NCBI RefSeq assembly: GCF_009914755.1
Contig: NC_060930.1
Reading direction: 5' to 3' (one strand)
Origin: the human T2T-CHM13v2.0 reference genome, Homo sapiens
DNA: 64,000 nt
The translations under genes were made by a program, and so were the position numbers. Shown here piece by piece: positions 1 through 57,511 of this stretch. The notes below the pieces were generated by a model that was not told the DNA's origin, ran no database searches, and worked only from the letters and a program-made list of their open reading frames with translations. Each line of letters opens with the position of its first letter. Position 1 is the stretch's first letter.

Positions 1-1419
1 CCCAAGCAAGCCAGTAAGTTCGACAAGCTGCCAATAAAGATAGTCAAAAAGAACAACCTGTTTGTTGTTGACCGATCTGACAAGTTGGGGCGTGTGCAGG
101 AGTTCAATAGTGGCCTTCTGCACTGGCAGCTCGGCGGGGGTGACACCACCGAGCACATTCAGACTCACTTTGAGAGCAAGATGGAAATTCCTCCTCGCAG
201 GCGCCCACCTCCCCCCTTAAGCTCCGCAGGTAGAAAGAAAGAGCAAGAAGGCAAAGGCGACTCTGAAGAGCAGCAAGAGAAAAGCATCATAGCAACCATC
301 GATGACGTCCTCTCTGCTCGGCCAGGGGCATTGCCTGAAGACGCAAACCCTGGGCCCCAGACCGAAAGCAGTAAGTTTCCCTTTGGTATCCAGCAAGCCA
401 AAAGTCACCGGAACATCAAGCTGCTGGAGGACGAGCCCAGGAGCCGAGACGAGACTCCTCTGTGTACCATCGCGCACTGGCAGGACTCGCTGGCTAAGCG
501 ATGCATCTGTGTGTCCAATATTGTCCGTAGCTTGTCATTCGTGCCTGGCAATGATGCCGAAATGTCCAAACATCCAGGCCTGGTGCTGATCCTGGGGAAG
601 CTGATTCTTCTTCACCACGAGCATCCAGAGAGAAAGCGAGCACCGCAGACCTATGAGAAAGAGGAGGATGAGGACAAGGGGGTGGCCTGCAGCAAAGATG
701 AGTGGTGGTGGGACTGCCTCGAGGTCTTGAGGGATAACACGTTGGTCACGTTGGCCAACATTTCCGGGCAGCTAGACTTGTCTGCTTACACGGAAAGCAT
801 CTGCTTGCCAATTTTGGATGGCTTGCTGCACTGGATGGTGTGCCCGTCTGCAGAGGCACAAGATCCCTTTCCAACTGTGGGACCCAACTCGGTCCTGTCG
901 CCTCAGAGACTTGTGCTGGAGACCCTCTGTAAACTCAGTATCCAGGACAATAATGTGGACCTGATCTTGGCCACTCCTCCATTTAGTCGTCAGGAGAAAT
1001 TCTATGCTACATTAGTTAGGTACGTTGGGGATCGCAAAAACCCAGTCTGTCGAGAAATGTCCATGGCGCTTTTATCGAACCTTGCCCAAGGGGACGCACT
1101 AGCAGCAAGGGCCATAGCTGTGCAGAAAGGAAGCATTGGAAACTTGATAAGCTTCCTAGAGGATGGGGTCACGATGGCCCAGTACCAGCAGAGCCAGCAC
1201 AACCTCATGCACATGCAGCCCCCGCCCCTGGAACCACCTAGCGTAGACATGATGTGCAGGGCGGCCAAGGCTTTGCTAGCCATGGCCAGAGTGGACGAAA
1301 ACCGCTCGGAATTCCTTTTGCACGAGGGCCGGTTGCTGGATATCTCGATATCAGCTGTCCTGAACTCTCTGGTTGCATCTGTCATCTGTGATGTACTGTT
1401 TCAGATTGGGCAGTTATGA
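1..1419 (+). CDS. ARID1B: ARID1B (BAF250B, SWI/SNF cBAF subunit) terminal coding exon, 5'-partial; encodes the C-terminal BAF250_C/EHD2 armadillo-like domain
   Basis: Frame 1 is open from base 1 ([35 protein letters not shown]...) to TGA at 1417-1419. The translation contains the ARID1-family motifs [51 protein letters not shown], an LxxLL motif (LDGLL, 814-828) and the ARID1B C-terminus [12 protein letters not shown]. The ORF-track start at 85 (TTG) is not a real start. Confidence 0.98.
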
Positions 1420-1907
1420 CATAAGTGAGAAGGCAAGCATGTGTGAGTGAAGATTAGAGGGTCACATATAACTGGCTGTTTTCTGTTCTTGTTTATCCAG
1501 CGTAGGAAGAAGGAAAAGAAAATCTTTGCTCCTCTGCCCCATTCACTATTTACCAATTGGGAATTAAAGAAATAATTAATTTGAACAGTTATGAAATTAA
1601 TATTTGCTGTCTGTGTGTATAAGTACATCCTTTGGGGTTTTTTTTTTCTCTTTTTTTTAACCAAAGTTGCTGTCTAGTGCATTCAAAGGTCACTTTTTGT
1701 TCTTCACAGATCTTTTTAATGTTCTTTCCCATGTTGTATTGCATTTTTGGGGGAAGCAAATTGACTTTAAAGAAAAAAGTTGTGGCAAAAGATGCTAAGA
1801 TGCGAAAATTTCACCACACTGAGTCAAAAAGGTGAAAAATTATCCATTTCCTATGCGTTTTACTCCTCAGAGAATGAAAAAAACTGCATCCCATCACCCA
1901 AAGTTCT

Positions 1908-1915
1908 GTGCAATA
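1908..1915 (+). promoter_or_regulatory. miR-25/32/92/363/367 8mer seed site (GTGCAATA); second 7mer-m8 at 3230-3236
   Basis: Exact seed match in the 3'UTR; function not shown. Confidence 0.5.
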
Positions 1916-2196
1916 GAAATTTCTACAGATACAGGTATAGGGGCTCAAGGAGGTATGTCGGTCAGTAGTCAAAACTATGAAATGATACTGGTTTCTCCAC
2001 AGGAATATGGTTCCATTAGGCTGGGAGCAAAAACAATGTTTTTTAAGATTGAGAATACATACCTGACAACGATCCGGAAACTGCTCCTCACCACTCCCGT
2101 CATGCCTGCTGTCGGCGTTTGACCTTCCACGTGACAGTTCTTCACAATTCCTTTCATCATTTTTTAAATATTTTTTTTACTGCCTATGGGCTGTGA

Positions 2197-2204
2197 TGTA
2201 TATA
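2197..2204 (+). promoter_or_regulatory. Pumilio response element TGTATATA (second PRE TGTACATA at 3268-3275)
   Basis: Both match UGUAHAUA exactly. Confidence 0.5.
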
Positions 2205-2761
2205 GAAGTTGTACATTAAACATACCCTCATTTTTTTCTTTTCTTTTTTTTTTTTTTTTTTAGTACAAAGTTTTAGTTTCTTTTTCATGATGTGGTAACT
2301 ACGAAGTGATGGTAGATTTAAATAATTTTTTATTTTTATTTTATATATTTTTTCATTAGGGCCATATCTCCAAAAAAAGAAAGAAAAAATACAAAAAACA
2401 AAAACAAAAAAAAAAGAGGGTAATGTACAAGTTTCTGTATGTATAAAGTCATGCTCGATTTCAGGAGAGCAGCTGATCACAATTTGCTTCATGAATCAAG
2501 GTGTGGAAATGGTTATATATGGATTGATTTAGAAAATGGTTACCAGTACAGTCAAAAAAGAGAAAATGAAAAAAATACAACTAAAAGGAAGAAACACAAC
2601 TTCAAAGATTTTTCAGTGATGAGAATCCACATTTGTATTTCAAGATAATGTAGTTTAAAAAAAAAAAAAAGAAAAAAACTTGATGTAAATTCCTCCTTTT
2701 CCTCTGGCTTAATGAATATCATTTATTCAGTATAAAATCTTTATATGTTCCACATGTTAAG

Positions 2762-2767
2762 AATAAA
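2762..2767 (+). terminator. Candidate proximal PAS (AATAAA, with ATTAAA at 2773)
   Basis: Two hexamers 11 nt apart, followed by GT-rich gggtgttctt. Confidence 0.45.
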
Positions 2768-2788
2768 TGTACATTAAATCTTGTTAAG

Positions 2789-2796
2789 CACTGTGA
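2789..2796 (+). promoter_or_regulatory. miR-128 8mer / overlapping miR-27 7mer-m8 site (CACTGTGA)
   Basis: Exact seed match just downstream of the proximal PAS candidate. Confidence 0.45.
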
Positions 2797-3855
2797 TGGG
2801 TGTTCTTGAATACTGTTCTAGTTTCCTTAAAGTGGTTTCCTAGTAATCAAGTTATTTACAAGAAATAGGGGAATGCAGCAGTGTATTCACATTATAAAAC
2901 CCTACATTTGGAAGAGACCTTTAGGGGTTACCTACTTTAGAGTGGGGAGCAACAGTTTGATTTTCTCAAATTACTTAGCTAATTAGTCTTTCTTTGAAGC
3001 AATTAACTCTAACGACATTGAGGTATGATCATTTTCAGTATTTATGGGAGGTGGCTGCTGACCCACTTGAGGTGAGATCTCAGAAGCTTAACTGGCCTGA
3101 AAATGTAACATTCTGCCTTTTACTAACTCCATCTTAGTTTAATCAAAGTTCAATCTATTCCTTGTTTCTTCTGTGTGCCTCAGAGTTATTTTGCATTTAG
3201 TTTACTCCACCGTGTATAATATTTATACTGTGCAATGTTAAAAAAGAATCTGTTATATTGTATGTGGTGTACATAGTGCAAAGTGATGATTTCTATTTCA
3301 GGGCATATTATGGTTCTCATATTCCTTCCTACCTGGTGCACAGTAGCTTTTTAATACTAGTCACTTCTAATTTAAACTTTCTCTTCCTGGGTCATTGACT
3401 GTTACTGTGTAATAATCGATTTCTTTGAAACTGCTGCATAATTATGCTGTTAGTGGACCTCTACCTCTTCTCTTCCCTCTCCCAATCACAGTATACTCAG
3501 AATCCCCAGCCCCTCGCATACATTGTGTCGGTTCACATTACTCACAGTAATATATGGAAGAGTTAGACAAGAACATGCAGTTACAGTCATTGTGAGACGT
3601 GACTCTCCAGTGTCACGAGGAAAAAAATCATCTTTTCTGCAAACAGTCTCTCATCTGTCAACTCCCACATTACTGAGTCAAACAGTCTTCTTACATAACA
3701 ATGCAACCAAATATATGTTGAATTAAAGACCCATTTATAATTCTGCTTTAAATACATCTGCTTGCTAAGAACAGATTTCAGTGCTCCAAGCTTCAAATAT
3801 GGAGATTTGTAAGAGGGAATTCAATATTATTCTAATTTCTCTCTTACAGAGTACA

Positions 3856-3861
3856 AATAAA
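3856..3861 (+). terminator. Candidate alternative PAS (AATAAA)
   Basis: Canonical hexamer inside the 3'UTR. Confidence 0.45.
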
Positions 3862-4255
3862 AGGTGTATACAAACTCCGAACATATCCAGTATTCCAATT
3901 CCTTTGTCAATCAGAAGAGTAAAATAATTAACAAAAGACTGTTGTTATGGTTTGCATTGTAACCGATACGCAGAGTCTGACCGTTGGGCAACAAGTTTTT
4001 CTATCCTGATGCGCAACACAGTCTCTAGAGACTAATCCAGGAAGACTTTAGCCTCCTTTCCATATTCTCACCCCCGAATCAAGATTTACAGAAGCCCACG
4101 AAGAATTTACAGCCTGCTTGAGATCATCTTGCCTATAAACTGAGTTATTGCTTTGTCCTAAAAATTAGTCGGTTTTTTTTTTTCTATGAGGCTTTTCAGA
4201 AATTTACAGGATGCCCAGACTTTACATGTGTACCAAAAAAAAAAAAAAGATAAAA

Positions 4256-4261
4256 AATAAA
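4256..4261 (+). terminator. Distal polyadenylation signal (AATAAA), likely the main ARID1B PAS
   Basis: AATAAA with upstream TGTA (4229-4232) and downstream GT/T-rich tracts (gttgaatctgttggtatttgagtggattttttt). Confidence 0.75.
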
Positions 4262-4889
4262 GGTGCAAAGAAAGTTTAGTATTTTGGAATGGTGCTATAA
4301 AGTTGAATCTGTTGGTATTTGAGTGGATTTTTTTAATGTCACATAAGAGATACTGGGCGGCGTCTGCTCAGCAATAGCTATTCACAGTGTTTTGTTCGAG
4401 GAAGAGAATGATATAGAAGCATGTTTTACTGATGAAGGTGGCCTGTTCAAAGACTAGTTAAGCTGTTTTTTCAGAGTTATAATGAAGAATGATTTTTTTA
4501 AGGGCATATGGGCAGTCTCATACAATGTAAGCTATTAACTACCTCCTTTATGAAAAGAAGCCAGCCTTTGCCCTGAAGTCCATCCATTTAAAACTGTTGG
4601 AAATCTTTCATTTCCTATCAAACCACATGTACCTGTTCCCATGTCTGTTCACCTTTGAGGAAGCAAAGAAAGTATTATAAATGAGCCACAAATGGACAGT
4701 GCAAACAGTCCCTGTTCTTCTTGCTGAGTGTTGGTTCACTTCTTTATTTCGAGGGCCGTGGCCCAGCTGCCTGAAGTCCTGCTCAGCACCAGCCTAGAAG
4801 AACTTGGAAGTAAACTTCATGGTCAGGCAAGATTGTTAAAAACTCTGATGAATACACTTGGTAGCAGCATTTAATCTGCGAACAGGCAA

Positions 4890-6379: not shown

Positions 6380-6545
6380 ACATGGAATCTTCTCTTGCTA
6401 TCTCCACGGCCTTGAGCCAGGTACTTAAATTATTTGAACCTCAGTTTCCTTGTCTGTAATATGGGCATGACACCCATCTCAGGGGATTGGTAAGGATTAA
6501 ATGAGATGATTAAAGGCCTTGTCACATGTGACCGGTGAATATTAA
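6380..6545 (+). mobile_element. MIR
   Basis: MIR core acctcagtttccttgtctgtaatatggg...aggattaaatgaga. Confidence 0.75.
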
Positions 6546-6688
6546 CCCCAAACATCCATCCATCCATACATATAGACTTCTCCTTTGGCTGGTGTCCTAA
6601 AATGTGTTTCACACAAAGTCCAAGAGAATAGCTTCCCATTTTCATAACCAGTCACACAGCTTGTGTGACTCTTTGTTGCTGTTTTTGG

Positions 6689-6799
6689 TTTATAGTAAAA
6701 CGTCTTAGTCCATTGAAGGCCTGTATTTGGCACTAAATACTAAATACTAAATTTAGTGCCAATACAGGCCTTCAATGGACTAAGCCGTTGTACTGTAAA
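6689..6799. repeat. Fold-back quasi-palindrome: ~50-bp arms (6689-6738 / 6751-6799) with (ACTAAAT)x3 at the centre
   Basis: Arms are reverse complements with 3 mismatches and one 1-nt indel. Confidence 0.95.
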
Positions 6800-6801
6800 A
6801 C

Positions 6802-7046
6802 GTCCCTATGTCCATCTGACCTCTACATCCCACCACCCTTACACCCTTGAATCTGCCTGGTCTTTTAAGGGCTTCAGCTGGCGGCCACTGCCCTCCCCAG
6901 CCCGGCCCACCCTGCTTGGGTTCTGCAAAACCCCCCATGGGTTCGGCCTCCAGTTCACTCCTCAGATCCCCACATCTTTCTGATTGAGGATCCCATTCTG
7001 TTGTACCCATATTTAAAATTGCCCGTCATCTCACCAAGGCCAGCTT
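6802..7046 (+). repeat. Inverted duplication, copy A (partner 10697-10941)
   Basis: 245 bp, ungapped, 11 mismatches against the reverse complement of 10697-10941. Confidence 0.97.

Positions 7047-8324: not shown

Positions 8325-8988
<664 letters not shown>

Positions 8989-56924: not shown

Positions 56925-57511
<587 letters not shown>

What the first reader, a model, noticed from the sequence alone, without database searches (positions are those of the whole stretch)
2188..2450. ~260-nt rod-like RNA hairpin in the ARID1B 3'UTR that buries a Pumilio element
Seen: a collinear series of complementary blocks with a near-constant register (arm sums 4639-4660). 2197-2208 TGTATATAGAAG pairs with 2432-2443 TTTCTGTATGTA (12 bp, 4 G-U). 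2209-2218 TTGTACATTA pairs with 2421-2430 TAATGTACAA (perfect). 2225-2229 CCCTC pairs with 2416-2420 GAGGG. U-run 2231-2261 pairs with A-run 2393-2415. GTA 2263 pairs with TAC 2390. TTTCTTTTT 2277-2285 pairs with AAAAAGAAA 2374-2382. GATGTGGT 2289-2296 pairs with GCCATATC 2361-2368 (2 G-U). CTA pairs with TAG, and GAAGTGATG 2303-2311 pairs with TATTTTTTC 2346-2354. Many DNA-level mismatches are G-U on the sense strand, which is what selection on RNA rather than DNA structure predicts. The apparent poly-T and poly-A filler tracts are the two arms of one stem. The PRE at 2197-2204 is in the basal stem. Inference: a dsRNA element for Staufen, ADAR or other dsRBPs, or a switch gating PUM access, in a haploinsufficient gene (Coffin-Siris syndrome) where mRNA dose matters.
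Basis: partly seen in the sequence, partly recalled or inferred. Interest (0 to 1): 0.82.

Follow-up and report, generated by a model that had tools for sequence, protein, structure and literature searches.

The report
Long RNA hairpin in ARID1B 3'UTR
The ARID1B messenger RNA tail is predicted to fold into a long, robust hairpin that wraps an ultraconserved core and hides an ancient Pumilio-binding motif, but whether cells use this fold is still untested.

Summary
Window 2188-2450 (+) folds into one rod hairpin of 94 bp: MFE -61.1 kcal/mol, z -5.3, 0 of 200 shuffles as good. All 94 pairs persist in the fold of the whole 2888-nt 3'UTR. The signal does not rest on the U- and A-runs. With both runs fixed, z is -5.6. 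The basal duplex (2188-2230 with 2416-2450) has z -6.6 and stays at p about 0.96 when the runs are forced open.

Three findings are new:
- The hairpin centre (2249-2376) is a catalogued ultraconserved element, identical in at least 3 of 5 placental mammals.
- The 5' arm, with its UGUAUAUA Pumilio element, is shared with the paralogue ARID1A (32/38 identical, 0/1000 shuffles). The U-run, the core and the 3' arm are found only in ARID1B.
- The sense strand folds better than composition predicts (1/300 shuffles).

My best reading is an ARID1B-specific long-range RNA fold that masks an ancient Pumilio-bearing motif (confidence 0.35). Binding of Staufen, ADAR or PUM, covariation, and folding in cells were not testable here. 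No orthologous sequences were available, and the paper reader closed mid-session. This is a new member of a known kind, of moderate interest.

The parts
2189..2229 (+). 5' basal arm. It carries the Pumilio element, UUGUACAUU and ACAUACCCU. It is homologous to a motif in the ARID1A 3'UTR.
   Evidence: It pairs with 2416-2450. Pair probabilities are mostly above 0.9 in the full UTR. 32/38 positions are identical to ARID1A L041:964-1000 (E 6e-4). The Smith-Waterman score is 22 against 9.4 +/- 1.2 for shuffles, 0/1000.
2197..2204 (+). Canonical Pumilio response element UGUAUAUA, buried in the stem.
   Evidence: It is one of 2 UGUANAUA sites in 1420-4307. Its mean unpaired probability is 0.06. Forcing it single-stranded costs 3.9 kcal/mol.
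2215..2220 (+). AUUAAA hexamer, partly in the 6-nt bulge 2217-2222. The U-tract starts 11 nt downstream of it, giving a layout like a poly(A) site.
   Evidence: Motif scan and unpaired probabilities of 0, 0.02, 0.56, 0.85, 1.0 and 1.0. Use as a cleavage site was not tested.
2231..2261 (+). U-tract (U7CU4CU18), the 5' strand of the middle 'zipper'.
   Evidence: Each register has a probability of 0.1-0.33. The last 13 U lie inside UCE_11316.
2249..2376 (+). Ultraconserved element UCE_11316 (128 nt): U13, the AU-rich core and A5.
   Evidence: The catalogue row in the supplement of PMC11837999 matches the window exactly at 2249. [quoted passage not shown]
2289..2368 (+). Apical hairpin inside the ultraconserved core. 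It contains AUUUA and U-rich stretches.
   Evidence: Helix 2289-2296 with 2361-2368 has p above 0.96. The core alone is only marginally stable: z -1.97 (19/500) and z -1.90 (6/200).
2372..2415 (+). A-rich tract, the 3' strand of the zipper.
   Evidence: It receives 20.5 of the 20.7 units of U-run pairing mass. G2379 pairs with C2280 and G2383 pairs with U2260.
2416..2450 (+). 3' basal arm, complementary to the 5' arm. It is specific to ARID1B.
   Evidence: The basal duplex is -32.6 kcal/mol, z -6.56. It has no ARID1A counterpart (46/1000 shuffles score as well). It is the best partner of the 5' arm anywhere in the UTR, at -35.2 against -22.2 +/- 3.5 for 40 random arms, 0/40 as good.

Best explanation
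This is a selected, ARID1B-specific long-range RNA fold. An ancient single-stranded motif cluster (UGUAUAUA Pumilio element, UUGUACAUU, ACAUACCCU) predates the ARID1A/ARID1B split. In ARID1B it is base-paired to a complementary arm about 190 nt downstream. A slippery U-tract/A-tract zipper and an ultraconserved AU-rich core lie between the two arms. The closed fold hides the Pumilio element, and also the AUUAAA hexamer and U-tract, so it weakens repressor access to the long mRNA. Proteins or helicases that bind the U/A tracts or the core could open it.

Shown: the fold and its robustness in silico, the ultraconservation of the centre (taken from a catalogue), the paralogue homology of the 5' arm, and the excess stability of the sense strand.

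Inferred: that the fold forms in cells, that it is under selection as a structure, and that PUM access is what it controls.
For: - The fold has z -5.31, and 94/94 pairs are kept in the whole-UTR MFE.
- The basal duplex has z -6.56 (0/1000). With the runs kept in place, z is -5.58 (0/300).
- The basal stem holds at p 0.96 when both runs are forced single-stranded.
- All 5 non-Watson-Crick pairs within the basal-stem helices are G-U wobbles on the sense strand, with no A-C.
- The sense-minus-antisense gap is beyond composition (1/300).
- The centre is UCE_11316.
- The 5' arm is conserved between paralogues, with the Pumilio element in both. ARID1A has no partner for its arm (24/60 random arms pair as well) and no comparable hairpin.
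- The element is not a multicopy repeat. Of 48 genome matches, only the locus itself covers the unique parts.
Against: - No orthologous sequences could be obtained, so conservation of the basal arms and covariation are unknown.
- The ultraconserved core is identical in its predicted loops as well as its stems, and it folds only marginally alone (z about -1.9). Structure therefore does not explain that conservation.
- The middle is all A-U and slips between registers (0.1-0.33 per register). U- and A-tract binding proteins would likely open it in cells.
- The GU:AC excess falls to p = 0.057 after correction for composition.
- Long hairpins of DNA-level origin are common: two other loci in this 64-kb window score higher.
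- I saw no data on PUM, STAU1 or ADAR binding. Five ARID1B-focused full-text searches found no description of the fold.
Confidence: 0.35

Rival explanations
1. The fold is incidental. The ultraconserved core and the 5' arm are conserved as linear protein or miRNA sites. The 3' arm is a relic of an old inverted duplication or template switch of the neighbouring motif. The hairpin exists in silico but is not selected and is mostly open in cells.
For: - The core folds only marginally alone, yet it is 100% conserved, loops included.
- The ARID1A motif is conserved without any partner, so the arm has a function that does not depend on structure.
- DNA-level inverted repeats are frequent: the other two strong loci in the window fold on both strands.
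- The middle helix is weak A-U.
Against: - All 5 non-Watson-Crick pairs in the basal-stem helices are wobble-compatible on the sense strand.
- The strand asymmetry exceeds the composition null (1/300).
- An unselected inverted copy beside an ultraconserved element should have decayed on both strands alike.
Confidence: 0.3
2. The hairpin is a platform for double-stranded-RNA-binding proteins. It recruits Staufen, ILF3 or ADAR, to set decay, translation, localisation or editing. Masking of the Pumilio element would be secondary.
For: - The basal stem offers 13 + 8 bp stacked across one bulged G, then 7 more bp.
- It is a long-range 3'UTR duplex of the kind mapped by STAU1 hiCLIP (kind known to me from the search listing of PMC10164587, and from recall).
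Against: - No binding or editing data were seen.
- The helices are short, rich in G-U and interrupted. Apart from the A-U zipper, no run exceeds 13 bp.
- ARID1B does not co-occur with hiCLIP or RIC-seq in any of the 40 listed of 303 papers. Supplements were not readable.
Confidence: 0.15
3. The element is a poly(A)-site module. UGUA elements at 2197 and 2210, AUUAAA at 2215-2220, a CA at 2229-2230 and the U-tract together make a cryptic or proximal cleavage site. Pairing of the U-tract with the A-tract suppresses or tunes that site.
For: The motif layout was read directly from the sequence. The hexamer is half exposed in a bulge.
Against: - The hub table lists no transcript end near 2230-2250.
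- This reading does not explain the 35-nt complementary 3' arm or the ultraconserved core.
- AUUAAA occurs 4 times, and the two hexamers together 7 times, in this AU-rich UTR.
Confidence: 0.08
4. The element acts at the DNA level. The ultraconserved block would be an enhancer or other DNA element, and the inverted repeat would matter as DNA (a cruciform) or not at all.
For: The same catalogue paper showed an intronic ARID1B ultraconserved element acting as an enhancer (passages).
Against: - No RefSeq functional element overlaps 2188-2450 (hub table).
- The sense strand folds far better than the antisense: -61.1 against -42.7. A DNA-level role does not predict this.
Confidence: 0.07

Closest known systems
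Long-range 3'UTR duplexes bound by Staufen1 (hiCLIP atlas; ARF1-type Staufen-binding sites)
   Same: It is an intramolecular duplex within a 3'UTR that closes a loop of more than 100 nt, with stems of about 10-20 bp.
   Different: No Staufen binding data were seen. The stem encloses an ultraconserved AU-rich core and a U/A homopolymer zipper, which is not a described feature of those sites. My basis is the search listing of PMC10164587 and recall of Sugimoto 2015 and Kim 2005.
PUM1-dependent structural switch in the CDKN1B (p27) 3'UTR (Kedde et al. 2010, recalled)
   Same: A Pumilio element sits inside a local 3'UTR fold, so Pumilio binding and RNA structure are coupled.
   Different: In that case PUM binding opens a hairpin to expose miRNA sites. 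Here the Pumilio element itself is predicted to be buried (unpaired probability 0.06), and no miRNA partner has been identified.
Ultraconserved elements in 3'UTRs (Stephen et al. 2008 list, as used in PMC11837999)
   Same: Window 2249-2376 is entry UCE_11316 of that list.
   Different: In what I read, the catalogue gives no structure or function for this entry. The basal arms lie outside it.
Inverted-repeat Alu dsRNA in 3'UTRs (recalled)
   Same: It is a long imperfect hairpin formed by inverted repeats within a 3'UTR.
   Different: It is not derived from Alu and is not multicopy. It is much shorter and AU-rich, and it is older than primates, given the ultraconserved core.
Poly(U) tracts pairing with A tracts or poly(A) tails, and low-complexity repeats as drivers of RNA-RNA contacts
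   Same: A U-tract and an A-tract are predicted to zip together.
   Different: Here both tracts are genomic and are clamped by specific, non-repetitive stems. My basis is the search listing of PMC12905285 and recall of Geisberg 2014 (yeast).

Membership tests
Pumilio response element | UGUANAUA consensus | tested here: met
   TGTATATA at 2197-2204. It is one of 2 such sites in 1420-4307.
Pumilio response element | Single-stranded accessibility for PUM repeats | tested here: not met
   In the predicted ensemble the mean unpaired probability is 0.06, and opening costs 3.9 kcal/mol. This is a prediction only.
Pumilio response element | Evolutionary conservation of the site | tested here: met
   The ARID1A 3'UTR carries TGTATATA in the homologous motif (32/38 identical, 0/1000 shuffles as good). 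Orthologues were not available.
Pumilio response element | PUM1/PUM2 binding in CLIP, or a response to PUM depletion | not testable with these tools
Staufen-type long-range 3'UTR duplex | Intramolecular stem of roughly 10-19 bp or more in a 3'UTR | tested here: met
   Helices of 13, 8 and 7 bp make up the basal stem, with p about 0.96. This is a prediction only.
Staufen-type long-range 3'UTR duplex | STAU1 cross-link or hybrid reads, and dependence on Staufen | not testable with these tools
   The hiCLIP paper is not held. The atlas supplement was not read.
ADAR substrate | Extended dsRNA and observed A-to-I sites | tested here: inconclusive
   The longest stack is 21 bp, with one bulge and 4 G-U. 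No editing data are available here.
Inverted-repeat Alu dsRNA | Arms derived from Alu or other multicopy repeats | tested here: not met
   Of 48 genome matches, 47 cover only the T-run or A-run, and only the locus itself matches the arms.
Ultraconserved element (Stephen 2008 definition) | [quoted passage not shown] | not testable with these tools
   This is taken from the catalogue. I verified only that the listed 128-nt string equals window 2249-2376.
ENE / triple-helix element (MALAT1, PAN type) | Match to a known family; a U-rich internal loop that clamps a downstream A-tract | tested here: not met
   Rfam gave 0 matches at E <= 1 over 1400-4400. In the predicted fold the A-tract is the 3' strand of the same helix.
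MITE-like DNA transposon | Multiple genomic copies; terminal inverted repeats with target-site duplication | tested here: inconclusive
   No other copy was found, but an old, diverged family would escape that search. Target-site duplications were not examined formally.
Cleavage and polyadenylation site | A(A/U)UAAA hexamer with a U-rich downstream element and upstream UGUA | tested here: met
   AUUAAA at 2215, the U-tract from 2231, and UGUA at 2197 and 2210. Use of the site was not testable.

The most novel reading that the evidence does not exclude
After splitting from ARID1A, ARID1B evolved a self-masking 3'UTR switch. An 'anti-PRE' arm, a U/A zipper and an ultraconserved AU-rich core together decide when an ancient Pumilio site, and an adjacent poly(A)-like signal, are exposed. 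This would give the haploinsufficient paralogue its own post-transcriptional dose control. It would also make the two arms candidate sites for non-coding variants that cause disease.
Probability: 0.15. Interest if true: 0.8.

Novelty: new member of a known kind. Interest (0 to 1): 0.5.

Why it matters
Loss of one ARID1B copy causes Coffin-Siris syndrome and intellectual disability, so anything that sets mRNA output matters clinically. If the fold is real in cells, it does three things. It gives a concrete reading for one 3'UTR ultraconserved element. It explains a difference in regulation between ARID1A and ARID1B. It also defines about 80 nt of non-coding sequence, the two arms, where variants could change dose. 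The hypothesis can be tested directly with existing duplex-mapping, CLIP and probing data, and with simple reporters.

Tried and rejected
**Known families and repeats**
- Rfam scan of 1400-4400 at E <= 1 gave 0 matches.
- Multicopy repeat or transposon origin was rejected for the unique parts.
- A genome-wide background of T15-N(120-150)-A10 gave 1670 + 1509 matches, against 8458 + 7838 for the reversed control. Of 13 unique loci examined, the ones with strong flank pairing are inverted Alus. This background is therefore not comparable and I dropped it as a null.
- A recurrent U-run/A-run design in this UTR was rejected. The T11/A14 pair at 4130-4300 has z -0.07.

**Orthologues and paralogue**
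- An exact 40-mer from the ultraconserved core found 0 matches in genome contigs and 0 in viral contigs. The tools hold no vertebrate genomes.
- ARID1A has no equivalent hairpin.
- I considered using ARID1A to polarise arm substitutions but dropped it, because the TA/TG-rich alignment is ambiguous.

**Literature**
- ARID1B with Staufen returned 13 papers, Pumilio 24, UTR + conserved + RNA structure 15, alternative polyadenylation 31, and UTR + hairpin + conserved 44.
- A mixed search (ARID1B, hiCLIP, EvoFold, RIC-seq, PARIS) returned 303 papers, of which 40 were listed. A search on ARID1A/ARID1B with PUM1/PUM2 returned 5.
- None describes this fold, judging by titles and by the passages I read.
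- One search returned 0, but that is not a valid negative, because the phrase '3 UTR' cannot match the printed form.

- The hiCLIP paper is not held.
- Paper reading closed, so the Pumilio target tables (PMC5758885) and the hiCLIP atlas tables (PMC10164587) were not seen and may bear on the claims.

Full report
**1. The observation**

Folded alone, window 2188-2450 (+) gives one rod-like hairpin at -61.1 kcal/mol. 200 dinucleotide shuffles gave -40.06 +/- 3.96, so z = -5.31, and 0 of 200 folded as well.

The MFE has 94 pairs: 46 UA, 21 AU, 15 GC/CG and 12 GU/UG. The exceptions are the small GTA/TAC pair, which is absent, and the exact register of the U-run.

In the MFE of the whole 2888-nt 3'UTR (1420-4307), all 94 of 94 pairs persist. 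The non-homopolymer helices have pair probabilities mostly above 0.9. Each U-A register has only 0.10-0.33, as expected for slipping homopolymers. Taken together, 20.5 of the 20.7 units of U-run pairing mass go to the A-tract 2372-2415.

**2. Is it more than chance?**

A plain shuffle destroys the 'U-rich on the left, A-rich on the right' layout, so I used stricter nulls.

| Null | Result |
|---|---|
| Both runs fixed, other three segments shuffled in place | z = -5.58, 0/300 |
| Only the basal flanks shuffled | z = -4.02, 1/300 |
| Only the centre shuffled | z = -1.73, 20/300 |
| Basal duplex 2188-2230 with 2416-2450 | -32.6 against -12.9 +/- 3.0, z = -6.56, 0/1000 |
| Centre alone (2262-2371) | z = -1.97, 19/500 |

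The ultraconserved stretch 2249-2376, folded alone, also gives only z = -1.90, with 6/200 as good.

The statistical weight therefore sits in the basal stem, not in the homopolymers and not in the core. The basal stem keeps p about 0.96 even when both runs are forced single-stranded. Against the whole UTR, the 5' arm's best partner is the 3' arm at -35.2. Forty random arms gave a best-partner energy of -22.2 +/- 3.5, and 0/40 were as good.

One caution applies. In a scan of the 64-kb window (263-nt windows, both strands, 1932 folds), this locus ranked only third by GC-adjusted energy. It came behind an inverted Alu-like pair at 56949-57467 and a locus around 6535-6930, which contains a 39-nt inverted repeat at 6689-6799. 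DNA-level inverted repeats make such hairpins fairly often.

**3. Strand evidence**

The antisense strand folds to only -42.7, z -2.68. The sense-minus-antisense gap is -18.4. Composition alone gives -8.2 +/- 4.1, so z = -2.5, and 1 of 300 shuffles was as extreme.

A strand-neutral alignment of the two arms shows 9 GU-type and 1 AC-type transition mismatches. That is p = 0.011 at even odds, but p = 0.057 once the G+U-rich composition is used. Within the helices of the basal stem, all 5 non-Watson-Crick pairs are wobbles. This points toward constraint on the sense RNA, but it is not decisive.

**4. What it is not**

- It matches no Rfam family at E <= 1.
- It is not a multicopy element. Of 48 matches in the human genome, only the locus itself covers the unique parts, and the rest are T-run or A-run matches.
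- It is not part of a recurrent design in this UTR.
- It does not resemble the genome's other convergent T-run/A-run pairs, which are dominated by Alus.

**5. Conservation**

No vertebrate genomes are available in the tools. An exact 40-mer from the core found nothing in the two collections I could scan. Two indirect lines of evidence turned up.

*The centre is a catalogued ultraconserved element.* The supplement of PMC11837999 (file 1, part 264, read) lists UCE_11316 at hg19 chr6:157529855-157529982, 128 nt, gene ARID1B. Its printed string equals window 2249-2376 exactly. That stretch is 13 U, the whole core and 5 A.

[quoted passage not shown] The list comes from Stephen et al. 2008 (passages). 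I did not see which three species support this entry. The element's ends fall inside the two runs. That is what run-length differences between species would produce, although a base difference there would give the same ends. Each basal arm is shorter than 100 nt, so its absence from the list says little.

*The 5' arm is shared with ARID1A.* I located the paralogue's last exon with the translated ARID1B C-terminus and fetched its 3'UTR. Three results follow.
- ARID1B 2588-2808 aligns to the ARID1A UTR at 179/237 identities, E 6e-38. The alignment takes in a shared AATAAATGTACATTAAATCTTG near its 3' end.
- Upstream of that block and collinear with it, the 5' arm 2192-2228 aligns to ARID1A at 32/38 identities, E 6e-4. 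The Smith-Waterman score is 22 against 9.4 +/- 1.2 for shuffles, 0/1000. Both copies carry TGTATATA, GTTGTACATT and ACATACCCT.
- The 3' arm (46/1000 shuffles as good) and the core (663/1000) have no ARID1A counterpart.

ARID1A has no T-run of 8 or more, and no window there folds unusually well. Its best GC-adjusted residual is -1.6 SD. Its copy of the motif has only an ordinary best partner, with 24/60 random arms as good.

**6. Reading**

The 5' arm is an old linear motif cluster that includes a canonical Pumilio element. ARID1B alone has a complementary arm downstream, separated from it by a U/A zipper and an ultraconserved AU-rich core.

In the predicted ensemble the Pumilio element has an unpaired probability of 0.06. 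Forcing it open costs 3.9 kcal/mol (-239.3 to -235.4). By my arithmetic, that would lower apparent affinity several-hundred-fold if the fold forms.

The explanation I commit to is an ARID1B-specific, selected long-range fold that masks this motif, with confidence 0.35. The steps that are inferred are formation in cells, selection on the structure, and PUM as the factor being gated.

The main rival, at 0.30, is that the fold is an unselected by-product. In that reading, the core and the arm are conserved as linear sites, and the 3' arm is a relic of an inverted duplication. In its favour, the ultraconserved core is identical in its predicted loops and barely folds on its own, so structure cannot explain that conservation.

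The other rivals are a platform for double-stranded-RNA-binding proteins (0.15), a poly(A)-site module built on AUUAAA 2215-2220 plus the U-tract (0.08), and a DNA-level role (0.07).

**7. Literature**

Seven ARID1B full-text searches and the passages I opened gave no description of this fold.

The paper reader closed. The Pumilio target tables (PMC5758885, of which I saw only the outline and abstract) and the hiCLIP atlas tables (PMC10164587, search listing only) were therefore not seen. Either could hold direct evidence for or against.

My comparisons with the p27 PUM1 switch, ARF1-type Staufen sites, inverted Alus and yeast poly(U)/poly(A) pairing rest on recall.

**8. Verdict**

The hairpin is real and robust as a prediction, and it is not a repeat artefact. 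Its centre is already catalogued as ultraconserved. The fold, the paralogue-shared arm and the ARID1B-specific masking arm were not described in anything I could search. I rate it a new member of a known kind (conserved long-range 3'UTR structure), with interest 0.5.

Noticed in passing
window 2588-2808 (with UCE_11317 at window 2672-2817): This block of the ARID1B 3'UTR aligns to the ARID1A 3'UTR at 179/237 identities, E 6e-38. Near its 3' end the two share AATAAATGTACATTAAATCTTG (ARID1B 2762-2783). It overlaps a second catalogued ultraconserved element. In ARID1A this motif lies where I recall the transcript ending. ARID1B may therefore keep an ancient proximal poly(A) site near 2790-2800, about 1.5 kb before the annotated end at 4307.
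   Followed up: partly
window 56949-57467: This is the strongest hairpin in the window: -172.9 on the + strand and -154.8 on the - strand for 57091-57353. It is formed by inverted repeats of 102 nt (81% complementary) and 88 nt (77%) whose sequence looks Alu-like. It lies inside a masked repeat and folds on both strands, as a DNA-level repeat should.
   Followed up: partly
window 6689-6799: A 39-nt inverted repeat, 92% complementary with a 33-nt spacer, lies about 2.4 kb downstream of the ARID1B 3' end. It sits within a stretch (6535-6930) that folds well on both strands.
   Followed up: no
window 2215-2261: AUUAAA is followed 11 nt later by a 31-nt U-tract, with UGUA elements upstream. This is the textbook layout of a cleavage and polyadenylation site, placed inside the 5' half of the hairpin.
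   Followed up: partly
window 4173-4248: A second U11 and A14 pair lies just before the terminal AAUAAA at 4256. It shows no excess folding: z -0.07, with 90/200 shuffles as good.
   Followed up: yes
human genome (G000), pattern T15-N(120-150)-A10: The convergent T-run-then-A-run arrangement gives 1670 + 1509 matches. That is about five times fewer than the reversed control arrangement, at 8458 + 7838 matches. Overlapping matches are counted more than once.
   Followed up: partly
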